64,000 nucleotides of DNA, from positions 60,342 to 124,341 of the forward strand of contig JACPBG010000002.1 of NCBI GenBank assembly GCA_016180435.1, written 5' to 3'. The position numbers and the translations under genes were made by a program. Source of the DNA: Candidatus Sungiibacteriota bacterium (GTDB lineage: Bacteria > Patescibacteriota > Minisyncoccia > Sungbacterales > HO2-52-23). Below are positions 3,298 through 19,514 of this stretch, piece after piece (within the stretch, counting starts at the first letter, position 1; each line of letters begins with the position of its first letter). The notes under the pieces are model-generated. The model searched no databases. It was not told the origin of the DNA and saw only the letters and a list, made by a program, of their open reading frames with translations.

Positions 3298-3407
3298 ATT
3301 TAAGACCGACAGTTCGGTCTTTTTTAATTGTCCTCGAGACGCCCTTGTATTTTATAGTAGATTATGGTAAGCTAATTTCAGTAAATTTCCAATCTGGGGA
3401 GATAAAA

Positions 3408-3914
3408 ATGCGCAGATCAAAGGTAAAGGTGGAGACGAAAAAGGTGAAGCACGAGTGGGGGAAAAATCGCATGGTGGTTTTGGAAGCTGGCGAGAATTTG
3501 GACCTCGGTAAGCTCTTTGAAAAGGACACTCTTGTGTCCCATGAGTATTGGGATTCGCTTAAAAGAAAAATGCAGCTTGATCCGGAAAAACAGCTTTTGT
3601 TTGCGGTGTTGGAAGACGCAGTGCATTGTTTTCAGAAATATATTAGTTTTTCCAGCCGGAGAGGCCGCACACTTTTTTTAGACGCCGATACCTGGATTCA
3701 GGAAAAAGACGCAAATGACCTGTTTTCGTTTGAGGGCGTTTGCGATCATCTCGGATTTGATGCGGATTATGTTCGGGAGGGTCTGAATCGTTGGAAAGAG
3801 CGGAATCGGTGTCCGGTAGAAATCCAGGTGAGCCGGAAAAGAAGAGGGCGTAAGCTGCGCGATCTTACGGTTTTTGAAGTATATGAAAAACCACCAAATG
3901 CGGCGGTTGTATAA
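3408..3914 (+). CDS. hypothetical protein
   Basis: ATG at 3408 follows GGGGAG. The 168-aa ORF matches no motif I recognise. Confidence 0.45.
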   Translation: MRRSKVKVETKKVKHEWGKNRMVVLEAGENLDLGKLFEKDTLVSHEYWDSLKRKMQLDPEKQLLFAVLEDAVHCFQKYISFSSRRGRTLFLDADTWIQEKDANDLFSFEGVCDHLGFDADYVREGLNRWKERNRCPVEIQVSRKRRGRKLRDLTVFEVYEKPPNAAVV

Positions 3915-3960
3915 TGCAGCCGTCTTTTTTTATCCCCGATTTTATGATATAGTGTGGACT

Positions 3961-5811
3961 ATGAATGCAGATGAATTACGTCAAAAATTCCTGGATTTTT
4001 TTGAGAAAAACGGACATACAGTTGTGCCGTCGTCCTCCCTGATTCCCGATGACCCGTCAGTTCTTTTAACAACCGCCGGCATGCAGCAATTCAAGCCATA
4101 TTATTCGGAGCTTGATCCGGAAAAAACTATACATCCGTCCCTTGGAAAACCGATTGGAAAAAATGTGGTATCCGTGCAAAAATCGTTTCGTACTTCGGAC
4201 ATTGACGAGGTGGGAGACGATTCCCATCTTACATTTTTTGAAATGTTGGGCAATTTTTCGTTTGGCGGATATTTTAAAAAAGAAGCGATTACATTTGCGT
4301 TTGATTTTATCACCAAGGAATTAAGAATTCCGATCTCTTTTGTAACTGTATTTGAGGGATCGCATGGTGTTGCCAAAGACGAAGAATCCCGCGCTATTTG
4401 GAAAAAACTTGGTGTTTCGGATGTGAGGGAGCAGGGGATTGAGGATGTGTTCTGGGGACCGACCGGATCAGCCGGACCATGCGGCCCCACCACCGAAATT
4501 TATTGCGAAAATGCGGCAGGCGGAAAAGCGGAAATTTGGAATATTGTTTTTAACGAATTTTATTTTCCCGGCTCGCGAGAGGAACTTTTGTCCGGTTCGT
4601 CCGGAAAATCGCTTGAGCGATTGAAAACTCCGGGCGTGGATACCGGCATGGGATTGGAACGCCTCGCGATGATTGCGCAGAACAAGAAAAATATCTTTGA
4701 GACGGATTTGTTTGTGCCTTTTTTCGAACTGTTGCCATCCGAATTGCCTGAACGCGAAAAAAGGATTATCGCGGATCATCTGCGCGGAGCCGTTTTTTTA
4801 ATAGCCGATGGTGTGCGTCCTTTGAATAAAGAAGCAGGATATATTTTGCGTCGTCTTATGCGACGAGCCTTAGTTTATGAATATAAATATAAAATTTCTC
4901 CGGAATTTTTCATCTCAATTATGGGTGAAACCATTTCTAATTATGGGAAATTTTATAGCCAACTTGTAAAGGAAAGTGAAAATATTCGGATAGAATTTGA
5001 AAATGAGCGAAAAAAATTTAGGAAATTATTACCTCACGGTTTGATACAAATAAATCATCACATTGCTTTAGATCAAGAGTTATTGAAAAAAGATTCTCCT
5101 AATATAAATAAGGAAAGGGCATTATCTGGTTTTCAGGCGGGTTTATTCGCATTTGATCTTTTTCAAGATTCCGGTTTTCCTACCGAAGTGAGTAAAGAGT
5201 TATTTGAACAAGCCAACTATGATCTTACTCGCTTTGAGGCGGGTGTCCTGGAGAAAGCTAAAAAACACCAAGAGATTTCGCGTCGGGGCACCGAAAAAAA
5301 ATTCGGGGGGCATGGATTATTGCTGGACACCGGGGAACTTAAAGCCGCGGATGAAAATGAATTAAAAATCGTAACGCGGCTCCATACCGCAACCCATATG
5401 CTCCAGCAGGCCTTGCGGGAGGTTTTAGGGCCGGACGTGCATCAGGCCGGATCGGACATTACCGTGGAGCGCACGCGGTTTGATTTCACGTTTCAGCGAA
5501 AACTGACTTCCGAGGAGATAAAGCAGGTGGAGGATTTGGTTAATCAAAAAATAAAAGAGGATTTGCCTATGCAAAAAAAAGTGCTTCCGAAGTCGGAAGC
5601 GGAAAAAACCGGCGCGCTTTATTTTTTCAAAGAAAAATATCCGGATCCGGTGAATGTTTATTTTATCGGGAAAGATTTGGAAAATGCTTGGAGCAAAGAA
5701 TTTTGCGGAGGTCCGCATGTAATGCATACCGGCGAGATCGGTAAATTTAGAATTGCTAAAGAAGAAGCAGTGGGGGCGGAAGTTCGTAGAATCCGTGCGG
5801 TTGTGGAATAA
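3961..5811 (+). CDS. alaS: alanine--tRNA ligase, short form (616 aa)
   Basis: The class II core shows FFEKNGH, LLTTAGMQQFKP, HLTFFEMLGNFSFGGYFK and GVDTGMGLERL. The editing domain shows HTATHML and CGGPH. The ORF ends right after the editing domain. Confidence 0.9.
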   Translation: MNADELRQKFLDFFEKNGHTVVPSSSLIPDDPSVLLTTAGMQQFKPYYSELDPEKTIHPSLGKPIGKNVVSVQKSFRTSDIDEVGDDSHLTFFEMLGNFSFGGYFKKEAITFAFDFITKELRIPISFVTVFEGSHGVAKDEESRAIWKKLGVSDVREQGIEDVFWGPTGSAGPCGPTTEIYCENAAGGKAEIWNIVFNEFYFPGSREELLSGSSGKSLERLKTPGVDTGMGLERLAMIAQNKKNIFETDLFVPFFELLPSELPEREKRIIADHLRGAVFLIADGVRPLNKEAGYILRRLMRRALVYEYKYKISPEFFISIMGETISNYGKFYSQLVKESENIRIEFENERKKFRKLLPHGLIQINHHIALDQELLKKDSPNINKERALSGFQAGLFAFDLFQDSGFPTEVSKELFEQANYDLTRFEAGVLEKAKKHQEISRRGTEKKFGGHGLLLDTGELKAADENELKIVTRLHTATHMLQQALREVLGPDVHQAGSDITVERTRFDFTFQRKLTSEEIKQVEDLVNQKIKEDLPMQKKVLPKSEAEKTGALYFFKEKYPDPVNVYFIGKDLENAWSKEFCGGPHVMHTGEIGKFRIAKEEAVGAEVRRIRAVVE

Positions 5812-7844: not shown

Positions 7845-9041
7845 ATGTTTTCTTTATTTAAAAACAGAAAAGCGCCCTTATACGCAGCTATAGACGTCGG
7901 ATCCCATGCGGTAAAAGCCGTTATTTTCGAGAAGACGCGGGATAAAAAAAATCCCAAGGTTTTGAAAAAAATAATCATGAAGCTGCCTCCGGCATTTGAG
8001 CCGATTCGAATGGTGCATAAGCTCCGGGAGATACTTTTCGTAGTGGTAAAGGAACTTGGGCGCATTCCGGAGAAATTGGTGATCGCGTTCGGGACATCTC
8101 TGGCCGCGCATACGTTTGAGGTCTGGAATGCGGGTACGCTGTCGGCGGAAGAGGTATCGGCCGAGGCACTTGGCCGTTTATTCAAAAGTATCGCCGATTC
8201 GCATATATCGGCCGGACGTTTTATTTTCGCCTATCCCATTGAGGCCTTGGTCAATGGATATACGGTTGCATATTTTAAAACCGGAAATTGGATTTCGGCG
8301 GGTCTTGGAAAAAACGGCGCGTCAGGCGAGATATTTAAAAAAATAGCATTGTATCCGGGCAGTGCCATAAGTTTTCGCGCCTTGATTCTCACTTGCGCTG
8401 AAGACGTGGGCGAGGGTCTGCTTAATTTAAAGAAAAGTTTCGGGGGCATGCCGATTGAGTTTATCCCCATATCTTTTGCGCATCAGCATGCCGCTACGCG
8501 GGTTTTGGGATATCGCGATGTCATGCTGATTGATATTGGCGGGGAAATGACGGTTTTGGCCGAGATTCAAGAATCCGTGATCGGCGAAATCGCTTCAATC
8601 GAGGTTGGCGGCAGGAATTTTGTACGCGGAATTGCGCGGGTAGCCGGGATTTCCTTTGATGAGGCCGAGGATTTGAAGCGCCAGTATGCCAGCGATCAAA
8701 TCAGCGAGGAGCGAAAAAAAATGATCCGCTCATTCATAGGGCAGGAAGCAGATTTTTGGAAAAAAAAGTTTTTGGAATCGCTGGATGCGTTTTATCGCCT
8801 CGGACCCCTGCCGCCCGAGGTCCTGCTTTTCGGAGGCGGCTCAAACCTGGAGGATATTGCCTCATATCTCCGCGAAGGCGGATGGCTGGAAGATTTTTCG
8901 TACGCGAAATCAGCTACGGTACGATTGATGCGCGGCTCCGATTTGTTCGATGGATCATCCCTGAAAGGTTTTTTACAGGGTCCGGATGAATTTGCTATAG
9001 GGTCGCTGATTCATTATGCGTTGGAAGAATCAAATCACTAA
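7845..9041 (+). CDS. actin-fold ATPase of the FtsA/PilM family
   Basis: Phosphate-1 motif AAIDVGSHAVKAV, then MLIDIGGEMTVLAEI and VGGRNFVRGIARVAGISFDEAEDLKRQY. No ftsZ gene is adjacent. Confidence 0.7.
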   Translation: MFSLFKNRKAPLYAAIDVGSHAVKAVIFEKTRDKKNPKVLKKIIMKLPPAFEPIRMVHKLREILFVVVKELGRIPEKLVIAFGTSLAAHTFEVWNAGTLSAEEVSAEALGRLFKSIADSHISAGRFIFAYPIEALVNGYTVAYFKTGNWISAGLGKNGASGEIFKKIALYPGSAISFRALILTCAEDVGEGLLNLKKSFGGMPIEFIPISFAHQHAATRVLGYRDVMLIDIGGEMTVLAEIQESVIGEIASIEVGGRNFVRGIARVAGISFDEAEDLKRQYASDQISEERKKMIRSFIGQEADFWKKKFLESLDAFYRLGPLPPEVLLFGGGSNLEDIASYLREGGWLEDFSYAKSATVRLMRGSDLFDGSSLKGFLQGPDEFAIGSLIHYALEESNH

Positions 9042-15807: not shown

Positions 15808-15845
15808 CAATAGCCGCGATGACCGCGGCTATTGTGTTATTATTA
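15808..15845 (+). terminator. Rho-independent terminator after rpsI
   Basis: CAATAGCCGCG-atgac-CGCGGCTATTG, followed by TGTTATTATT. Confidence 0.7.
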
Positions 15846-15897
15846 CTTCTATGTTACTATTATTTCGGTTCATTTTCATAAATTATGGAGGAAGCAA

Positions 15898-16932
15898 ATG
15901 AGTGATAGGAAAGCACCGTATGACACCAATGAAGGAATTCAGCGTGCCGTCAAAACGTTGCATAAACTTAACGAGTTGGTGGCGAATCGCCATAGGGCTG
16001 GGTATGAAAGACATGAACGACTCAAGGAATTCTATGTCCTTGGACGGTGGCGTACTGACTCTTGTGGCAATTTTGGAAAGATCATCTCTGAGTTTATCCC
16101 GAAATTAAAGTTCCCCCAGATCCCCGACGTTTTAACCAACGAAGAGTTTTGGGCATTCTTGGGGGCGCAAGGGCTTGATGTTGAGAAAACCTTTGTTTCA
16201 AGCGGAATGTCGAACGACCTACCGCCTGATGACATCGTATGTTGTGTTTGCCAGCAGTCGTGGACTATTGAAAATTGCCATGACGTAGTTATCACCCATC
16301 AGCATCAGGATTTTTCATTGTCAGAGTTCGTTGGGAGACAGCTTTGGGAGGTACAACGGGTATACGGTATGCGAATTGATGCTTGCTACCGTATGCAGCC
16401 AGACATTCTTATTCGTAACGATCGATTCATTGATCTACGTCCGGAGCCAGAATTTGAAACGCTCAAAAGGAATGAGCATGGATGGGTGGGCAAAGAAGAT
16501 GGAGTTACGGAAAACTATGTGATTCAGTCAGGTGATGATGGGTTTTTCAACGTCTGGCATTTTCATCATCATGCGTGTAGTCGGAAAAAGCTCGAAGCTG
16601 ATATGCGGCAGCAATTCCGTGATGTACTCACAAAAGCGGGTTTTGCTAACACAATCCTCAAGTCAATTCCGAATCAGTATTGCCCATGTGAGCATTGTGC
16701 TCCGTGGTTCGTGGTACGGACTGAACATGGTACATTTACGATCGGATGGCGAAAGCGCGTCATCAATATCGATTGGAAGGCGACTGGTAAGAACTTTCTG
16801 CCGCTTTTCGACGATCAGGACGTTACGAAAGACAACCACTTGATTCATGCATGGGGTTACGAAAAAGCTACTGAATATTTTACGAGGATTAAGGGGTTTC
16901 TCATTCAGTCCGAGGCGTTAACTCAACGTTAA
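15898..16932 (+). CDS. orphan Cys/His-rich hypothetical protein (344 aa)
   Basis: ATG at 15898 lies 7 nt after GGAGG. The protein has clustered Cys/His motifs (CCVCQQ, HFHHHAC, CPCEHC). The gene is bracketed by terminators at 15808-15845 and 16938-16968. Confidence 0.55.
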   Translation: MSDRKAPYDTNEGIQRAVKTLHKLNELVANRHRAGYERHERLKEFYVLGRWRTDSCGNFGKIISEFIPKLKFPQIPDVLTNEEFWAFLGAQGLDVEKTFVSSGMSNDLPPDDIVCCVCQQSWTIENCHDVVITHQHQDFSLSEFVGRQLWEVQRVYGMRIDACYRMQPDILIRNDRFIDLRPEPEFETLKRNEHGWVGKEDGVTENYVIQSGDDGFFNVWHFHHHACSRKKLEADMRQQFRDVLTKAGFANTILKSIPNQYCPCEHCAPWFVVRTEHGTFTIGWRKRVINIDWKATGKNFLPLFDDQDVTKDNHLIHAWGYEKATEYFTRIKGFLIQSEALTQR

Positions 16933-16937
16933 ACAAG

Positions 16938-16968
16938 ACTGCCTGGCTCTGCCAGCAGTTTTTATTTT
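16938..16968 (+). terminator. Rho-independent terminator after the Cys/His-rich ORF
   Basis: ACTGCCTGGC-tct-GCCAGCAGT, followed by TTTTATTTT. Confidence 0.7.
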
Positions 16969-17136
16969 CAAAAACCTAAAGTCCACCACGCCTCAAAGCA
17001 TTGCAGTGGGCGAAGAGATAGACTAGCTTTCGTATGTTGACCCCAAAGACCGAACTAAAAAGTTTGGTCTTTTGGGTGAGGGGTAGGCGGGGAAGACCGA
17101 AATATTCTTGAGTCTTGGGTGGGGAAAAGCCCCTAC

Positions 17137-17190
17137 TTGACAAATTACCGGGATTCCCGGTAAGATTAATTTAATATCTAATTCCCGGTA
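17137..17190 (+). promoter_or_regulatory. promoter with an embedded 19-bp perfect palindrome (operator-like) plus a third half-site
   Basis: TTGACA (17137-42), 18-nt spacer, TAAGAT (17161-66). The palindrome TTACCGGGA-T-TCCCGGTAA spans 17145-17163. A further TTCCCGGTA lies at 17182-17190, just before the ATG at 17194. Confidence 0.6.
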
Positions 17191-17193
17191 TTT

Positions 17194-18156
17194 ATGAAAA
17201 TATATCTTCCCCATAGTGCATTTTTAGGGAATATTGATCCATTCCTGGCGGCCTTTGACCCTAGCCATAAGGAAAAGCTCGAAATTACCGCTAATAAAAA
17301 TTGGATTTTTGTTCACCCCGTTGTATTAGCAATGGTAGCGGCGTTAGGTTTAACAGTTTATCGAAAAAATATTAAATGTGAAAAGATAGTGGCACGTTCG
17401 GGTCACTACCTTGAAAGGATGGGTTTATTCAAATTTCTTGATATTAAATCAGGGATGAAGATAACCGAACACGATCCATCGGGGCGATTCGTTCCACTAA
17501 CACAGATAAAAACCTCTGAACAACTCACAAAGTTTCTAACCGAAATGATTCCACTGCTTCATTTAGAACCTCGACATGCCGAACCAATCAAATATATTAT
17601 TAGTGAATTGGTGAGAAACGTGTTAGAGCACGCTCGTGCACCACAAGGAGCTATCGTATCTGCTCAATATCATGCAAAAAATAAAACAATTCGCATAGGA
17701 ATAGTTGATCGTGGTAGTGGTATAAAAAGCACAATTAATCAATCATGGGATGCAAGTAATGATCTTGAGGCTATTAAGTTGGCACTTATGCCGGGAGTTA
17801 CAGGAACTACAAAAAGAGAAGGCGGAACAGAACAAAATGCTGGAGCAGGTTTATTTTTTATTAAATCAATTGCTTATGTGAATCGTAATTTTTTTATGAT
17901 CTATAGCGGAAACGCAATGTATAAACTTCTGAAAAGAAGTGGCGCTAAAAAAATTATGCTTCATGCTAACCCCAATCTTGACAGACACTCAGAAAGAAAT
18001 AACTTACCTTATTGGGATGGTACGGCGGTGGGTGTAGATATTTCTTTAGATACTACACAAGAATTTACTGCACTTCTTGATCTTATAAGAGATACTTACT
18101 CGGAGGCAGTTAAAGAGCGTAAGCGTAATAGATATAAAAGGGCTAAATTTATTTAA
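17194..18156 (+). CDS. GHKL/Bergerat-fold ATPase (HATPase_c-like), with no DHp/HisKA domain
   Basis: N box is ELVRNVLEHA, G1 box is VDRGSGI and G2 box is GAGLFFIKS. The unrecognised N-terminal region is about 120 aa. It resembles anti-sigma serine kinases (SpoIIAB/RsbW type). Confidence 0.7.
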   Translation: MKIYLPHSAFLGNIDPFLAAFDPSHKEKLEITANKNWIFVHPVVLAMVAALGLTVYRKNIKCEKIVARSGHYLERMGLFKFLDIKSGMKITEHDPSGRFVPLTQIKTSEQLTKFLTEMIPLLHLEPRHAEPIKYIISELVRNVLEHARAPQGAIVSAQYHAKNKTIRIGIVDRGSGIKSTINQSWDASNDLEAIKLALMPGVTGTTKREGGTEQNAGAGLFFIKSIAYVNRNFFMIYSGNAMYKLLKRSGAKKIMLHANPNLDRHSERNNLPYWDGTAVGVDISLDTTQEFTALLDLIRDTYSEAVKERKRNRYKRAKFI

Positions 18157-18161
18157 ATATT

Positions 18162-18449
18162 ATGGTTACTATCGAACTTTTTCCCTTAGTGGGGGGCTTT
18201 GCGGAAAACAAGGATATTGCAAGAGACATAAGACGAGACCAAATTCTTCCAGCTCTGAAGAATGGAGAAAGTGTTGTCTTGGATTTTAGTGGCATAGAAT
18301 CTACAACACAATCTTTCGTTCACTCCTTAATTAGTGATGTAATGAGGGAATACGGGAGTGACGTTATGGATAAATTAGTATTTAAAAATTGCAGTGAAAC
18401 CATACAAAAAATCATCAGTATAGTTGTGGACTATATGCAGCAAACATAA
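18162..18449 (+). CDS. STAS-like small protein (DUF4325-like)
   Basis: 95 aa with VVLDFSGIESTTQSFVHSLISDV, resembling the STAS / anti-sigma-antagonist core. It starts 5 nt after the ATPase stop. Confidence 0.6.
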   Translation: MVTIELFPLVGGFAENKDIARDIRRDQILPALKNGESVVLDFSGIESTTQSFVHSLISDVMREYGSDVMDKLVFKNCSETIQKIISIVVDYMQQT

Positions 18450-18540
18450 TTTGTCTCAGTTAAAGACGTATTACGGTTCGCCCTGCGGAATTTTTTATAC
18501 GGACTTTTTATTTTCTCGCGTAAATTTTATTTGAAAAAAC

Positions 18541-18571
18541 GCGAAAATAAAATGTCATCCGAAAGGATGAC
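18541..18571 (-). terminator. Rho-independent terminator for 18591-19148 (minus strand)
   Basis: GTCATCC-tttc-GGATGAC, then ATTTTATTTT on the minus strand. Confidence 0.6.
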
Positions 18572-18590
18572 GTTTCTATATAGATACGCC

Positions 18591-19148
18591 CTAATGATAT
18601 GGAGAAAATGTCGCCTCTTTTAATCGCCAGTGTAATTTTATTCCCGCTTGATCTTCCGCAAAAATATCTTTCACGAAGTTGTCGAAACGAGCCGAGAATG
18701 GATACTTTTGCAAAGTAAGGTCGGCCAGAAGATGCAGCTTGTCTATCGGAAAGCGCTTCAGGCAAAATACATATGCCTCGGCAATGTCTGATCTTGAGCA
18801 TCCCTCGTCCCTTTCCCGCGGCCAGATACGATGCAGTACTGAAATCATCTTCAGTTTAAATTCGGAGTTTCCGAACCGCAAAAGAAAAAGAAGGAGCTGG
18901 CGGATTGTTCCTGCAAAAAAGATTTCCCAGCTCCTGCTTTTTCGTGCGGCTGAACCTTGTTTATAAAGACCCAATTTCCACCATAGTTCGGCGGGTCTGC
19001 TGTCCGGCATTTTCAGCACTTTCCATTGATATAACATCCAGTCAAGAACGCCGGGAACTGCAACCTCTTTTTGATAGCAGATTTTTTCTAAATCATGAAG
19101 CGCCAGTGGATACTTCTTTTTAAAAGTAGCACTTGTATGCCAAGGCAT
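18591..19148 (-). CDS. hypothetical protein (185 aa)
   Basis: Clean ORF followed by a terminator hairpin (18554-18571) and a T-run on the minus strand. I recognise no family. Confidence 0.5.
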   Translation of the reverse strand: MPWHTSATFKKKYPLALHDLEKICYQKEVAVPGVLDWMLYQWKVLKMPDSRPAELWWKLGLYKQGSAARKSRSWEIFFAGTIRQLLLFLLRFGNSEFKLKMISVLHRIWPRERDEGCSRSDIAEAYVFCLKRFPIDKLHLLADLTLQKYPFSARFDNFVKDIFAEDQAGIKLHWRLKEATFSPYH

Positions 19149-19274
19149 TTATTTATCTCCTATAGCTGGTATGAGCTTCACACAAGATAACAAAAAAACG
19201 TTATTTTGTCAATCTTGCAAAATAGTACAGATTATGCTATTTTAGTTTTAGTTCATTTTTCGCGTAGGTGCAAT

Positions 19275-19514
19275 ATGTCTAGTTGGCTGGATACGGAAAA
19301 AGGTCAAGAATTTTTCAAAAAAGCCTTTGAGGTTGCCGATTTGCCGGAGGTTGATGGAGATGTCTTGGAGCAAGGCACATACACCAACCGTCAAATCGCC
19401 GAAAAAGCCGGAAGCCCAGAAAAATTGCTGTCATTGCTTATGAATGTATCCGGTGATCGGGCGACGAAAAGATCGATCCTTAGTTTCGCCGTGGAAATGG
19501 ATTTAGAAGATTAA
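19275..19514 (+). CDS. small acidic hypothetical protein (79 aa)
   Basis: ATG at 19275 follows AGGTG. A terminator follows at 19530-19560. Confidence 0.35.
   Translation: MSSWLDTEKGQEFFKKAFEVADLPEVDGDVLEQGTYTNRQIAEKAGSPEKLLSLLMNVSGDRATKRSILSFAVEMDLED

What the first reader, a model, noticed from the sequence alone, without database searches (positions are those of the whole stretch)
17137..18449. Stand-alone GHKL ATPase plus STAS-like (DUF4325-type) pair under a palindromic operator: a partner-switching-like module with no sigma factor or phosphatase
- The 320-aa protein has intact Bergerat ATP-binding boxes (ELVRNVLEHA, DRGSGI, GAGLFFIKS) and lacks a DHp/His phosphoacceptor domain. In this it resembles the anti-sigma Ser kinases SpoIIAB and RsbW.
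- It also has an unrecognised 120-aa N-terminal domain.
- Five nt downstream is a 95-aa STAS-like protein (VVLDFSGIESTTQSF), the fold such kinases phosphorylate.
- No cognate sigma factor, PP2C phosphatase or HTH regulator is nearby.
- The promoter contains a perfect 19-bp palindrome plus a third half-site, implying tight repression by a factor encoded elsewhere.
- To my knowledge this gene pair has no established function. Its position in an accessory island makes it a candidate conflict or stress-sensing system.
Basis: partly seen in the sequence, partly recalled or inferred. Interest (0 to 1): 0.65.

Follow-up and report, generated by a model that had tools for sequence, protein, structure and literature searches.

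The report
Minimal stand-alone CapK/CapS-like kinase–STAS cassette
A 1.3-kb mobile two-gene cassette encodes a small protein kinase, its partner protein and its own conserved on/off DNA site; it is a stripped-down relative of a DNA-damage-sensing switch (CapK/CapS, VapKSC) described in 2026 that controls bacterial anti-virus defences, but it lacks any recognisable output part.

Summary
At 17137-18449 there is a sigma-70-type promoter with a perfect 19-bp palindrome, a third half-site, a 320-aa GHKL kinase (K) and, 5 nt downstream, a 95-aa DUF4325/STAS protein (S).

The interpretation needs two corrections.
- **The pair has characterised relatives.** It is homologous to CapK/CapS and VapK/VapS (Chambers et al., EMBO J 2026). 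In those systems ssDNA activates a STAS-GHKL kinase, which phosphorylates a STAS partner. That de-represses immune operons or releases a VapC toxin.
- **The repressor is probably not encoded elsewhere.** The palindrome travels with the cassette. It is present in 74 of 87 non-redundant loci from many CPR phyla and from DPANN archaea. It carries 1.79 bits/nt against about 0.4 in the flanks, so the repressor is almost certainly cassette-encoded.

The cassette is also not in an accessory island. It is a low-GC, 1.32-kb insertion among core genes. Across 90 loci no third gene is conserved next to it. Relatives of the pair also sit in phage genomes.

What is new is the minimal form:
- no HTH on either protein;
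- no VapC and no regulated downstream operon;
- a clade-specific basic tail on K.

The DNA-binding subunit and the output remain unresolved. I file it as a new variant of a known kind, of moderate interest.

The parts
17133..18450 (+). The whole mobile unit: promoter/operator, K gene and S gene.
   Evidence: blastn of 16600-19100 against 102 related loci gives similarity that starts no further left than 17133 and ends no further right than 18450. GC is 0.35-0.39 here against 0.43-0.50 in the flanks.
17137..17166 (+). Sigma-70-type promoter: TTGACA (17137-17142), 18-nt spacer, TAAGAT (17161-17166).
   Evidence: The consensus scan matches 10 of 12 positions. The same TTGACA / palindrome / TAtAAT layout is seen in L001, L004, L009 and L011.
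17145..17163 (.). Operator: perfect 19-bp palindrome TTACCGGGATTCCCGGTAA filling the promoter spacer.
   Evidence: It is unique in the window. It is present with at most 2 mismatches in 74 of 87 non-redundant loci and is perfect in 44. It carries 1.79 bits/nt against 0.36-0.50 in the flanks.
17182..17190 (+). Auxiliary operator half-site TTCCCGGTA, 28 bp from the right arm and 4 nt before the start codon.
   Evidence: Auxiliary half-sites at about 27-28 or 37-39 bp recur in most loci.
17194..17514 (+). K residues 1-107: STAS-like N-terminal domain with invariant W37 (17302-17304).
   Evidence: The model shows a b-a-b-a-b-a-a-b pattern. hhalign against a Deinococcus VapK-like protein gives probability 97% and E 2.9e-11 over residues 8-249, with W37 aligned to its W53. 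That protein's N-domain passes the Pfam STAS threshold. Fold searches did not return STAS for this domain.
17515..18048 (+). K residues 108-285: GHKL (Bergerat) kinase domain. N box E138/N142/H146, G1 box D172-G174-G176, ATP lid 200-219, G2 box G217-G219.
18049..18156 (+). K residues 286-320 plus the stop codon: long basic C-terminal helix ...KERKRNRYKRAKFI (R309 and F319 invariant).
   Evidence: The helix spans 294-315 in the model. The tail is present in this clade (window, L047, L016, P0121, P0140). It is replaced by an acidic-aromatic tail in VapK-like, Alicyclobacillus and GBS-phage K, and by a linker in K-S fusions.
18162..18449 (+). S: 95-aa DUF4325 STAS protein. Candidate phospho-acceptors are T49 (18306-18308) and S51 (18312-18314) in the invariant TQSFxH motif at the N-terminus of helix 2.
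18477..18499 (+). Terminator-like hairpin plus T-run after S. It is local sequence, not part of the conserved block.
   Evidence: DNA similarity to other loci ends at 18450.

Best explanation
This is an autonomous, horizontally spread, self-repressed two-gene cassette. It is a minimal member of the CapK/VapK-CapS/VapS kinase-substrate family.

**Shown or strongly supported by computation**
- K combines a STAS-like N-domain, a SpoIIAB-type GHKL Ser/Thr kinase with all ATP-binding residues intact, and a clade-specific basic C-terminal helix.
- S is a bare STAS domain. Its most conserved surface is the N-termini of helices 1 and 2, including T49-Q50-S51.
- K and S are an obligate, translationally coupled pair, and they are sometimes fused.
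- A palindromic operator array fills the promoter and is inherited with the genes across Bacteria and Archaea. No other gene, and no second operator after S, is conserved.

**Inferred by homology to CapKS and VapKSC**
- K docks S and transfers phosphate to T49 or S51.
- K is switched on by single-stranded DNA bound between its STAS and GHKL domains, stacking on W37. The cassette therefore reports DNA damage or phage replication.

**Inferred from operator co-inheritance**
- The repressor is K, S or the K-S complex. The very basic K (pI 9.7) is a better candidate than the acidic S (pI 4.6).
- Phosphorylation of S dissolves the repressing complex and de-represses the cassette.

**Least certain step, my commitment**
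- The cassette works in both domains of life without any conserved partner, and it behaves like toxin-antitoxin modules.
- I therefore take the output to be K itself. Once freed from S and over-produced, K would act as a growth-arresting or phage-blocking effector, in a TA/abortive-infection-like way.
For: **Family assignment**
- K against a VapK-like protein from a vapKSC operon (HTH gene, K, STAS-like, PIN) on Deinococcus plasmid P5: BLASTP 4e-9; hhalign probability 97.2%, E 2.9e-11. The match covers the N-domain and the kinase, with W37 aligned to W53.
- The S profile's best PDB hit is Escherichia VapS at E 0.0019. VapS phospho-site S48 falls on our residue 50, between invariant T49 and S51.
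- hhalign of S against Deinococcus VapS gives E 2.9e-5.
- The mechanism of the family is taken from PMC13373217.

**Obligate pair**
- S is adjacent in 84 of 87 loci, with an ATGA overlap in 67.
- True fusions P0249, P0252 and P0259 keep the ATQSFIHA motif.
- PHROG phrog_5816 and the N-terminus of a PADLOC DrmA model both contain K followed by S.

**Autonomy**
- 540 neighbouring ORFs in 90 loci give no family present in more than 5 loci. Contexts are shown.
- DNA similarity is bounded at 17133-18450, and GC dips across the cassette.

**Autoregulation**
- The operator is present in 74 of 87 loci, including archaeal ones whose promoters carry a TATA box.
- It carries 1.79 against about 0.4 bits/nt, while synonymous sites are saturated.
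- A 46%-identical phage-borne cassette has a different inverted repeat at the same promoter position.
- Half-sites after S are at background level.

**Link to mobile elements and conflict**
- A cassette sits inside the structural module of a tailed phage.
- GBS temperate phages carry a K-S pair between lysin and integrase.
- A Francisella prophage has a DUF4325 gene next to the integrase (PMC7924643).
- An Alicyclobacillus plasmid carries a pair beside IS elements.
- The VapC clade PIN.4 is coupled to DUF4325 genes (PMC5499597).
Against: - Neither protein has a recognisable DNA-binding domain, so the identity of the repressor is pure inference.
- The exact alignment column of the VapS/CapS phospho-serine is an invariant Gln in this clade. 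The acceptor (T49 or S51) is therefore not established.
- ssDNA activation was not tested and cannot be tested here.
- No toxicity or phage data exist for any KS-only pair. CapK is not reported to be toxic in E. coli.
- Fused K-S proteins fit poorly with a classical toxin plus labile antitoxin.
- The neighbourhoods show no enrichment of defence genes.
- Only 64 kb of the source genome could be searched for further operator copies, so a trans regulon is not excluded.
Confidence: 0.55

Rival explanations
1. **Orphan sensor-regulator acting in trans.** The K-S pair senses DNA damage as CapKS does. Its phospho-switch controls genes or proteins encoded elsewhere in the genome, for example operator-bearing promoters or a VapC-like toxin bound by S.
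For: In CapKS and VapKSC the K-S core always serves a separate output. PIN genes are common in these genomes, and one lies about 2 kb upstream in L056. Only 64 kb of the source genome could be scanned for operators.
Against: - S lacks both the wHTH of CapS and the C-terminal helix that VapS needs to inhibit VapC.
- There is no operator after S and no recurrent neighbour.
- Cassettes about 68% identical, with the same operator, occur in Bacteria and Archaea. That argues against dependence on a host-specific partner.
- The only other half-site in the window (20846) lies inside the ABC exporter gene and fits chance.
Confidence: 0.2
2. **The first reader's model.** This is a partner-switching module of the SpoIIAB/RsbW type. 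Its kinase sequesters a transcription factor such as a sigma factor encoded elsewhere, and its promoter is shut by an unlinked repressor.
For: The structural nearest neighbours of K and S are SpoIIAB/RsbW and SpoIIAA/RsbV. NCBIfam gives weak SpoIIAB and RsbW hits. In one distant KS locus (Alicyclobacillus pAACI02) a 92-aa sigma-70 region-4-like protein is encoded just upstream.
Against: - The scores are far below the SpoIIAB/RsbW equivalog cut-offs (21.9 against 135 bits).
- No sigma factor or PP2C gene occurs in any of 90 contexts.
- The cassette is common in DPANN archaea, which have no sigma factors.
- The operator is co-inherited with the cassette, so an unlinked repressor would have to exist in all these hosts.
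Confidence: 0.08
3. **S is the effector and K its neutraliser or activator** (type VII TA-like logic). The small acidic STAS protein, or its phosphorylated form, binds a universal cellular or viral component. K sets its activity by phosphorylation.
For: STAS domains are versatile binding modules: VapS binds VapC through its STAS domain. Kinase-as-antitoxin systems are known from the literature (my own knowledge, not checked here). The gene order, with the enzyme first and the small protein second, is compatible.
Against: The conserved surface of S (N16-K17-D18, R24, T49-S51, H54) lies at the N-termini of helices 1 and 2. From my recollection of the published SpoIIAA-SpoIIAB complex, that is the kinase-docking face, which would leave no obvious second conserved interface. 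Fusion of S to K in cis fits a regulatory domain better than a free effector.
Confidence: 0.1

Closest known systems
VapKSC (VapK kinase, VapS STAS antitoxin, VapC PIN toxin); Chambers et al., EMBO J 2026, PMC13373217
   Same: - K has the VapK architecture, STAS-like plus GHKL with no HTH. It aligns to a VapK-like protein over both domains, including the aromatic residue equivalent to VapK F54.
- S, like VapS, is a DUF4325-type STAS protein encoded immediately after the kinase. VapS is its best PDB sequence match.
- The family's PIN partner clade was already noted as coupled to DUF4325 genes.
   Different: - There is no VapC or any other third gene.
- S ends at residue 95 and lacks the C-terminal inhibitory helix (VapS residues 94-116).
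- The phospho-serine column is Gln, flanked by invariant Thr and Ser.
- K carries a basic C-terminal helix instead of an acidic-aromatic end.
- The cassette has a conserved palindromic operator in its own promoter.
CapK/CapS regulators of immune operons (same paper)
   Same: - A kinase gene is always followed by a STAS-protein gene.
- The kinase and STAS folds are SpoIIAB-like and SpoIIAA-like.
- Autoregulation works through palindromic sites whose half-sites are separated by 1 bp (the 'narrow palindrome'), with evidence for several cooperating sites.
- The Trp in the kinase's STAS domain is conserved.
   Different: - K has no N-terminal HTH and S has no wHTH.
- The operator lies upstream of K rather than between K and S or after S.
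- There is no downstream regulated operon and no operator after S.
- The half-site differs: TACCGGGA here against TTAA in CapKS.
- The hosts are mostly CPR bacteria, DPANN archaea and phages rather than Proteobacteria.
SpoIIAB-SpoIIAA and RsbW-RsbV partner-switching modules
   Same: They are the best structural matches for both proteins. The kinase phosphorylates a Ser at the N-terminus of STAS helix 2.
   Different: - There is no sigma factor and no PP2C phosphatase.
- K has an extra N-terminal STAS-like domain and a C-terminal helix.
- Scores are far below the family cut-offs.
- The cassette occurs in archaea.
Type II toxin-antitoxin modules (for example HipBA-type kinase toxins)
   Same: - A two-gene, 4-nt-overlapping, self-repressed cassette with a palindromic operator in the promoter.
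- Scattered single insertions among core genes, low GC, cross-domain horizontal transfer, and presence on phages and plasmids.
   Different: No toxicity has been shown. The small protein has no DNA-binding domain. The kinase fold is GHKL, not Hanks/HipA. Fused K-S forms exist.
DISARM DrmA (PADLOC model PDLC02567)
   Same: The first ~390 positions of this 1750-position model match K (positions 34-248, E 3.9e-14) and then S (positions 323-389, E 2.2e-5) in order. Some DrmA-like helicases therefore seem to carry a fused K-S module.
   Different: The window has no helicase, DrmB, DrmC or methylase. I did not retrieve an actual DrmA sequence with this N-terminus.

Membership tests
CapK/VapK-type kinases (PMC13373217) | GHKL kinase domain with an intact active site (CapK N218 equivalent) | tested here: met
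CapK/VapK-type kinases (PMC13373217) | STAS domain N-terminal to the kinase domain | tested here: inconclusive
   - The N-domain aligns to that of a Deinococcus VapK-like protein, whose N-domain passes Pfam STAS at 23.3 against 22.6 bits.
- Relative P0259 gives a weak STAS_2 hit, and the secondary-structure order fits.
CapK/VapK-type kinases (PMC13373217) | Conserved aromatic residue in the STAS domain that stacks on ssDNA (CapK W68, VapK F54); activation by ssDNA | tested here: inconclusive
   W37 is invariant and aligns to W53 of the VapK-like protein. An aromatic residue is nearby in all relatives aligned. I had no CapK or Escherichia VapK sequence, and ssDNA activation is not testable here.
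CapK/VapK-type kinases (PMC13373217) | Kinase gene immediately followed by a STAS-protein gene | tested here: met
   The gap is 5 nt in the window. S is adjacent in 84 of 87 loci, with a 4-nt overlap in 67.
CapS/VapS-type STAS substrates | STAS fold | tested here: met
CapS/VapS-type STAS substrates | Absolutely conserved Ser/Thr at the start of STAS helix 2 (CapS S54, VapS S48) | tested here: inconclusive
   T49 and S51 are invariant and lie at the helix N-terminus. The column aligned to VapS S48 is invariant Q50 in both the HMMER and MAFFT alignments.
CapKS regulator | wHTH DNA-binding domain on the STAS protein | tested here: not met
   S is 95 aa and consists of the STAS fold only.
CapKS regulator | Immune operon downstream under control of a second operator | tested here: not met
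   No neighbour is conserved in 90 loci. Half-sites in the 300 bp after S are at background level: 10 of 75 loci have at least one, and 1 has two or more.
VapKSC toxin-antitoxin | VapC (PIN) toxin gene after the STAS gene | tested here: not met
   The next ORFs in the window have no Pfam or PADLOC hit and lie on the other strand. There is no recurrent PIN neighbour.
VapKSC toxin-antitoxin | C-terminal inhibitory helix on the STAS protein (VapS 94-116) | tested here: not met
   S ends at residue 95, right after the last STAS helix.
SpoIIAB/RsbW partner switching | Cognate sigma factor and PP2C phosphatase in the operon or regulon; NCBIfam equivalog score | tested here: not met
   TIGR01925 scores 21.9 bits against a cut-off of 135, and RsbW scores 15.4 against 145. 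No sigma or PP2C gene was found nearby or in related loci. The cassette occurs in archaea.
Type II toxin-antitoxin module | Toxicity of one component, neutralised by the other | not testable with these tools
   Only the genomic behaviour is TA-like.
Type II toxin-antitoxin module | Autoregulation through a palindromic operator in the promoter | tested here: inconclusive
   The operator is present and strongly conserved with the cassette. Binding by K or S has not been shown.
DISARM | DrmA helicase, DrmB (DUF1998), DrmC and a methylase | tested here: not met
   Only the N-terminal ~390 positions of one PADLOC DrmA model match. The ORFs scanned around the cassette include no helicase or methylase.

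The most novel reading that the evidence does not exclude
The K-S pair is a complete, self-sufficient two-gene immune or addiction system that works in both Bacteria and Archaea. The ssDNA-sensing kinase is itself the effector. Operator recognition is carried out by a previously unknown DNA-binding mode of a STAS-GHKL kinase, of its basic tail, or of the kinase-STAS complex, with no HTH involved.
Probability: 0.25. Interest if true: 0.75.

Novelty: new variant of a known kind. Interest (0 to 1): 0.52.

Why it matters
- **Scale.** CapK/CapS and VapKSC were described in 2026 from a few hundred mostly proteobacterial loci, always with an attached output (a wHTH plus an immune operon, or VapC). 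This cassette shows the kinase-STAS core also exists as a very abundant stand-alone unit. The K search found 3100 clusters at 90% identity and 2025 clusters at 50% identity with E up to 1e-3, including fragments and more distant GHKL relatives.
- **Distribution.** Most of the named close homologues come from genome-reduced CPR bacteria and DPANN archaea, and relatives sit in phage genomes.
- **Open questions.** What is the output of a sensor with no visible effector? How is a conserved 17-bp palindrome read without a known DNA-binding domain, under both bacterial and archaeal promoters?
- **If it proves to be a defence or addiction module.** It would be one of the most compact such modules, at 1.3 kb, and one of the few found in CPR and DPANN organisms.
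- **If it is only a regulator.** It gives a natural minimal system for dissecting the ssDNA-activated phospho-switch.

Tried and rejected
1. **N-domain as a DUF4325 duplicate.** hhalign of K residues 1-107 and 241-320 against the S profile found no similarity.
3. **K profile against PDB sequences.** Nothing significant was found.
4. **The palindrome as a marker of a wider regulon or a trans factor.** It gave 29 exact hits in IMG/VR contigs, none near a K or S gene.
   - The hits I inspected looked like terminator-type hairpins after capsid genes, or coding sequence for GNPG/IPGIP repeats.
   - I rejected them as unrelated.
5. **N-terminal extensions as a CapK-like HTH.** In P0140, P0160 and P0215 the extensions are low-complexity translations of miscalled starts. 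The extensions of P0024 and P0094 are translated operator sequence ('GIPGI').
6. **P0132 as a K-S fusion.** It looks like a frameshift artefact. P0249, P0252 and P0259 are genuine fusions.
7. **dN/dS.** dS is saturated, so ratios are mostly undefined. I conclude only strong purifying selection and transfers that are not recent.
8. **Basic K tail as the sequence-specific reading head.** The tail is nearly the same in the phage cassette, which has a different operator, and it is lost in K-S fusions. It may instead dock S or bind DNA non-specifically. This is unresolved.
9. **Literature.** Searches for DrmA+STAS and for the GBS-phage pair found nothing relevant.
10. **Genome-contig scan.** With a single sequence it returned only 9 loci. 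The metagenome scan with the alignment was more useful.
Full report
**1. The observation**

- ORF K runs 17194-18156 (320 aa). ORF S runs 18162-18449 (95 aa), 5 nt downstream on the same strand.
- K matches Pfam HATPase_c_2 at E 1.6e-6, just above the curated cut-off. S matches DUF4325 ('STAS-like') at E 4.2e-16.
- The quoted Bergerat boxes are there. In an alignment of 33 homologues the key residues are invariant: E138, N142, H146, D172, G174, G176, G217, G219.
- The promoter is TTGACA (17137-17142), an 18-nt spacer, then TAAGAT (17161-17166), matching 10 of 12 consensus positions.
- The spacer is filled by the perfect palindrome TTACCGGGATTCCCGGTAA (17145-17163). Its 17-nt core occurs once in the 64-kb window.
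- A third half-site, TTCCCGGTA, lies at 17182-17190. The window holds four half-sites against 1.2 expected, and three of them are in this promoter.

**2. Structures**

*K.* An AlphaFold2 model (pLDDT 84, pTM 0.86) shows three parts.
- An N-terminal alpha/beta domain spans residues 1-107.
- A GHKL domain spans about 108-285, with a disordered but highly conserved ATP lid.
- A long basic C-terminal helix spans 294-315.

**3. Distribution and genomic behaviour**

*Homologues.* K has 3100 homologous clusters at 90% identity with E up to 1e-3. In the 50% library it has 2025 clusters at E up to 1e-3, 413 at 1e-10 and 88 at 1e-30.

The best 120 are 65-76% identical over the full length, yet they come from very different lineages.
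- The window's own protein is 100% identical to one from a Candidatus Sungbacteria MAG.
- Other bacterial sources are Omnitrophica, WOR-1, Curtiss-, Zambryski-, Pace-, Dojka-, Sacchari-, Berkel-, Roizman- and Levybacteria, and WWE3.
- Archaeal sources are Nano-, Aenigm-, Woese- and Pacearchaeota, and Diapherotrites.

dN is 0.17-0.25 while dS is saturated. This means strong purifying selection and transfers that are not recent.

*Pairing and autonomy.* In every context examined the two genes are together.
- In 87 non-redundant loci S follows K in 84, and the genes overlap by 4 nt (ATGA) in 67.
- I clustered 540 neighbouring ORFs from 90 loci. No family occurs in more than 5 loci, so there is no conserved third gene.
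- DNA similarity between the window and 102 loci starts no earlier than 17133 and ends by 18450.
- The window shows a GC dip to 0.35-0.39 over exactly this stretch.

*Setting in the window.* The surroundings are core genes, not an accessory island. FtsA, S4, RpoA, L17, L13 and S9 lie upstream. An ABC exporter, a PEGA protein, a MurA-like enzyme, MreB, an MBL-fold protein and HolB lie downstream.

**4. The operator travels with the cassette**

- The same palindrome, TACCGGGA[A/T]TCCCGGTA, lies upstream of K in loci from unrelated phyla.
- Of 87 non-redundant loci, 74 have it with at most 2 mismatches within 140 bp of the start, 44 have it perfectly, and 72 have at least three half-sites. Background is 0.09 half-sites per 160 bp.
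- Aligned on the palindrome, 44 distinct sites carry 1.79 bits/nt in the 17-nt core against 0.36-0.50 in the 25-nt flanks.
- Auxiliary half-sites, or a second palindrome, lie about 27-28 or 37-39 bp away.
- Even the subclade scored as 'no palindrome' (for example L005) has the two half-sites split apart.

The promoter context differs between the two domains of life while the operator stays the same.
- In bacterial loci the palindrome fills the TTGACA to TAtAAT spacer.
- In archaeal loci (L010, L055, L056) a TTTATAAA TATA box sits between the palindrome and the start-proximal half-site.

A phage-borne cassette only 46% identical (L047-L049) has a different inverted repeat at the same promoter position: TACCCGTAGATCGTAT ... 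ATACGACCTACGGGTA, bracketing TTGACA. Nothing else is inherited with the operator, and the hosts span two domains. The protein that reads it is therefore most parsimoniously K, S or their complex. Half-sites in the 300 bp after S are at background level, so there is no second regulated promoter.

**5. What is known**

A full-text search found Chambers et al., EMBO J 2026 (PMC13373217) and its preprint. The paper describes two related systems.
- *CapKS.*
  - CapK has the domain order HTH-STAS-GHKL, and CapS is STAS-wHTH. The genes are always adjacent and lie upstream of Bub, CBASS, Thoeris and other operons.
  - The CapS dimer binds palindromes in its own promoter and in the downstream promoter.
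  - CapK is activated by ssDNA of about 20 nt, bound between its STAS and GHKL domains, and W68 is essential for this.
  - Active CapK phosphorylates CapS S54 on STAS helix 2. The dimer then falls apart and transcription is de-repressed.
- *VapKSC.*
  - VapK is STAS-GHKL, with F54 as the equivalent aromatic residue.
  - VapS is a STAS domain plus a short C-terminal helix. It is phosphorylated on S48 and acts as the antitoxin.
  - VapC is the PIN toxin. The system protects E. coli against phage Bas42.

**6. Homology tests against that family**

*S.*
- The S profile's best PDB sequence match is 'Escherichia VapS' (9z7o_A, E 0.0019), covering S residues 19-90.
- By hhalign, S matches the VapS of a bona fide vapKSC operon at E 2.9e-5. 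I found that operon, ordered HTH gene, K, STAS-like and PIN, on Deinococcus gobiensis plasmid P5.

*K.*
- K matches that operon's VapK-like protein at BLASTP 4e-9, and at hhalign probability 97.2% and E 2.9e-11, over residues 8-249. The match therefore includes the N-domain.
- Our invariant W37 (NKNWIFVH) aligns to its W53 (NMTWIDVN).
- The Deinococcus protein's N-domain passes the Pfam STAS threshold. This supports, indirectly, the STAS nature of our N-domain. The fold searches could not confirm it.

*The phospho-site.* The column of VapS S48 is occupied here by invariant Q50, with invariant T49 and S51 on either side. The motif (A/T)TQSF(I/V)H is kept even in distant single-chain K-S fusions. 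The acceptor is therefore probably T49, the helix N-cap, or S51, but this is not settled.

**7. How this cassette differs from the described systems**

- Neither protein has an HTH or wHTH.
- S stops right after the STAS fold, so it has no VapS-type inhibitory helix.
- There is no VapC and no downstream operon.
- The operator is upstream of K.
- K ends in a basic helix, ...RKRxxYKxxKF[ILKT]. This is shared by this clade, including the 46-53% relatives and P0121 and P0140.
  - It is replaced by an acidic-aromatic end in the VapK-like, Alicyclobacillus and GBS-phage kinases.
  - It is replaced by a linker in K-S fusions.
- K is very basic throughout (pI 9.7, net charge +15), and S is acidic (pI 4.6).
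- The two distant loci whose K has an acidic tail each have a separate small HTH gene just upstream. One is HTH_3-like, and the other resembles sigma-70 region 4. That suggests the DNA-binding role can be outsourced, and that in our clade it lies within K, S or the K-S complex. This rests on very few loci.

**8. Links to mobile elements and defence**

- Both window proteins hit one PADLOC model named DrmA. K matches model positions 34-248 and S matches positions 323-389. Some DISARM-type helicases therefore seem to carry a fused K-S module.
- PHROGs holds a K family (phrog_3364) and a K-S fusion family (phrog_5816), both of unknown function.
- A 46%-identical cassette sits between the head and tail genes of a tailed phage.
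- Streptococcus agalactiae and S. dysgalactiae temperate phages (LYGO9, Javan39 and others) carry K homologues. In LYGO9, the one I inspected, a K-S pair sits between lysin and integrase.
- A Francisella prophage has a DUF4325 gene in the same kind of position (PMC7924643).
- An Alicyclobacillus plasmid has a pair beside IS elements.
- By contrast, the CPR and DPANN chromosomal contexts show no defence-island enrichment.

**9. Mechanism**

*Shown by computation.*
- K is an intact SpoIIAB-type kinase with a VapK-like N-domain, and S is a STAS partner.
- The two are coupled and sometimes fused.
- The cassette is autonomous, and its promoter operator is under strong selection and co-inherited.

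*Inferred by homology.* ssDNA binding near W37 activates K, which phosphorylates S at T49 or S51.

*Inferred from co-inheritance.* K, S or the K-S complex represses the promoter, and phosphorylation relieves the repression.

*My commitment for the missing output.* K itself is the effector, in a toxin-antitoxin or abortive-infection-like circuit.
- The reason is that the unit works across domains of life with no partner and has the genomic habits of TA modules.
- This last step is weak. The main rival is an orphan sensor acting on targets elsewhere in the genome, which I could not exclude with only 64 kb of the source genome.
- The classical sigma-factor partner-switching model is unlikely because the cassette is common in archaea and never accompanied by a sigma factor or PP2C gene.

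**10. Verdict**

It is wrong on the trans-encoded repressor and on the claim of no known relatives.

The cassette is a new, minimal, stand-alone and self-repressed variant of the CapK/CapS-VapK/VapS family. It is widespread in CPR bacteria and DPANN archaea, and relatives occur in phages. Two questions stay open: which subunit reads the operator without a known DNA-binding domain, and what the output is.

Noticed in passing
window 15832-16932 (+), 18591-19148 (-), 19206-19514 (+): Three ORFs directly flanking the cassette have no hit in Pfam, NCBIfam, PADLOC or PHROGs. They are a 366-aa Cys/His-rich protein upstream, and 185-aa and 102-aa proteins downstream. They are not part of the conserved cassette block.
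   Followed up: partly
window 17160-17193 compared with L010 (Nanoarchaeota) 7940-8000 and L055/L056: The window's promoter-proximal sequence (AATATCTAATTCCCGGTA) is nearly identical to that of a Nanoarchaeota locus (AATATCTATTTCCCGGTA). Archaeal loci keep the operator but place a TTTATAAA TATA box between the sites. This suggests CPR-DPANN cross-domain transfer with promoter retooling.
   Followed up: partly
PADLOC model PDLC02567 ('DrmA', 1750 positions) against window K and S: K matches model positions 34-248 and S matches positions 323-389 of a single DrmA model. Some DISARM-type helicases therefore seem to have an N-terminal fused kinase-STAS module. No such protein was retrieved.
   Followed up: no
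L139 (Streptococcus phage LYGO9, JX409894.1) 3387-4576; also Javan39, Javan132, phiGBSVK phages: Temperate phages of S. agalactiae and S. dysgalactiae carry K homologues. In LYGO9 the KS-only pair (298 aa plus a 99-aa DUF4325 protein, 7-nt overlap) lies between the lysin and the integrase, the usual place for lysogeny-expressed accessory genes. These are cultivable systems in which the pair could be tested.
   Followed up: partly
L048 (IMG/VR contig 3300008474_000007) 8001-9250: A K-S cassette 46% identical to the window's sits between the portal, protease-capsid and head-tail genes and the tape-measure gene of a tailed phage. It has its own, different inverted repeat around the -35 box.
   Followed up: partly
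L052 (Alicyclobacillus pAACI02) 79-357 and L050 (Deinococcus plasmid P5) 2512-2973: Distant K-S or K-S-PIN loci have a small separate HTH gene just upstream. One is a 92-aa sigma-70 region-4-like protein (Sigma70_r4_2, 6e-10) and the other an HTH_3-like protein. Their kinases end in an acidic-aromatic tail instead of the basic tail seen in the window's clade.
   Followed up: partly
L018, L027, L036 (IMG/VR): The same 17-nt palindrome occurs by itself just after a capsid-like gene in three related AT-rich phage contigs. It is probably a terminator or processing hairpin. It has no K-S genes nearby.
   Followed up: partly
P0024, P0094 (homologues of K): Their N-terminal extensions contain 'GIPGI...GIPGI'. 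This is the operator palindrome read as protein, so the start codons were called too far upstream in the source annotations.
   Followed up: yes
L055 751-2826 and 7807-8832: In one archaeal locus the cassette lies near an AAA_15/AAA_23 ATPase and a YhcG/DUF1016 nuclease-like gene, which are possible defence genes. This pattern was not seen in other loci.
   Followed up: no
window 17000-17130: The 200 bp between the upstream gene's terminator (16943-16955) and the cassette holds G-rich and hairpin-prone sequence, for example CAAAGACCGAACTAAAAAGTTTGGTCTTTTGGG and GGGTGGGGAAAAGCCCCTAC. Its role is unknown and it lies outside the conserved block. It could mark the insertion site.
   Followed up: no
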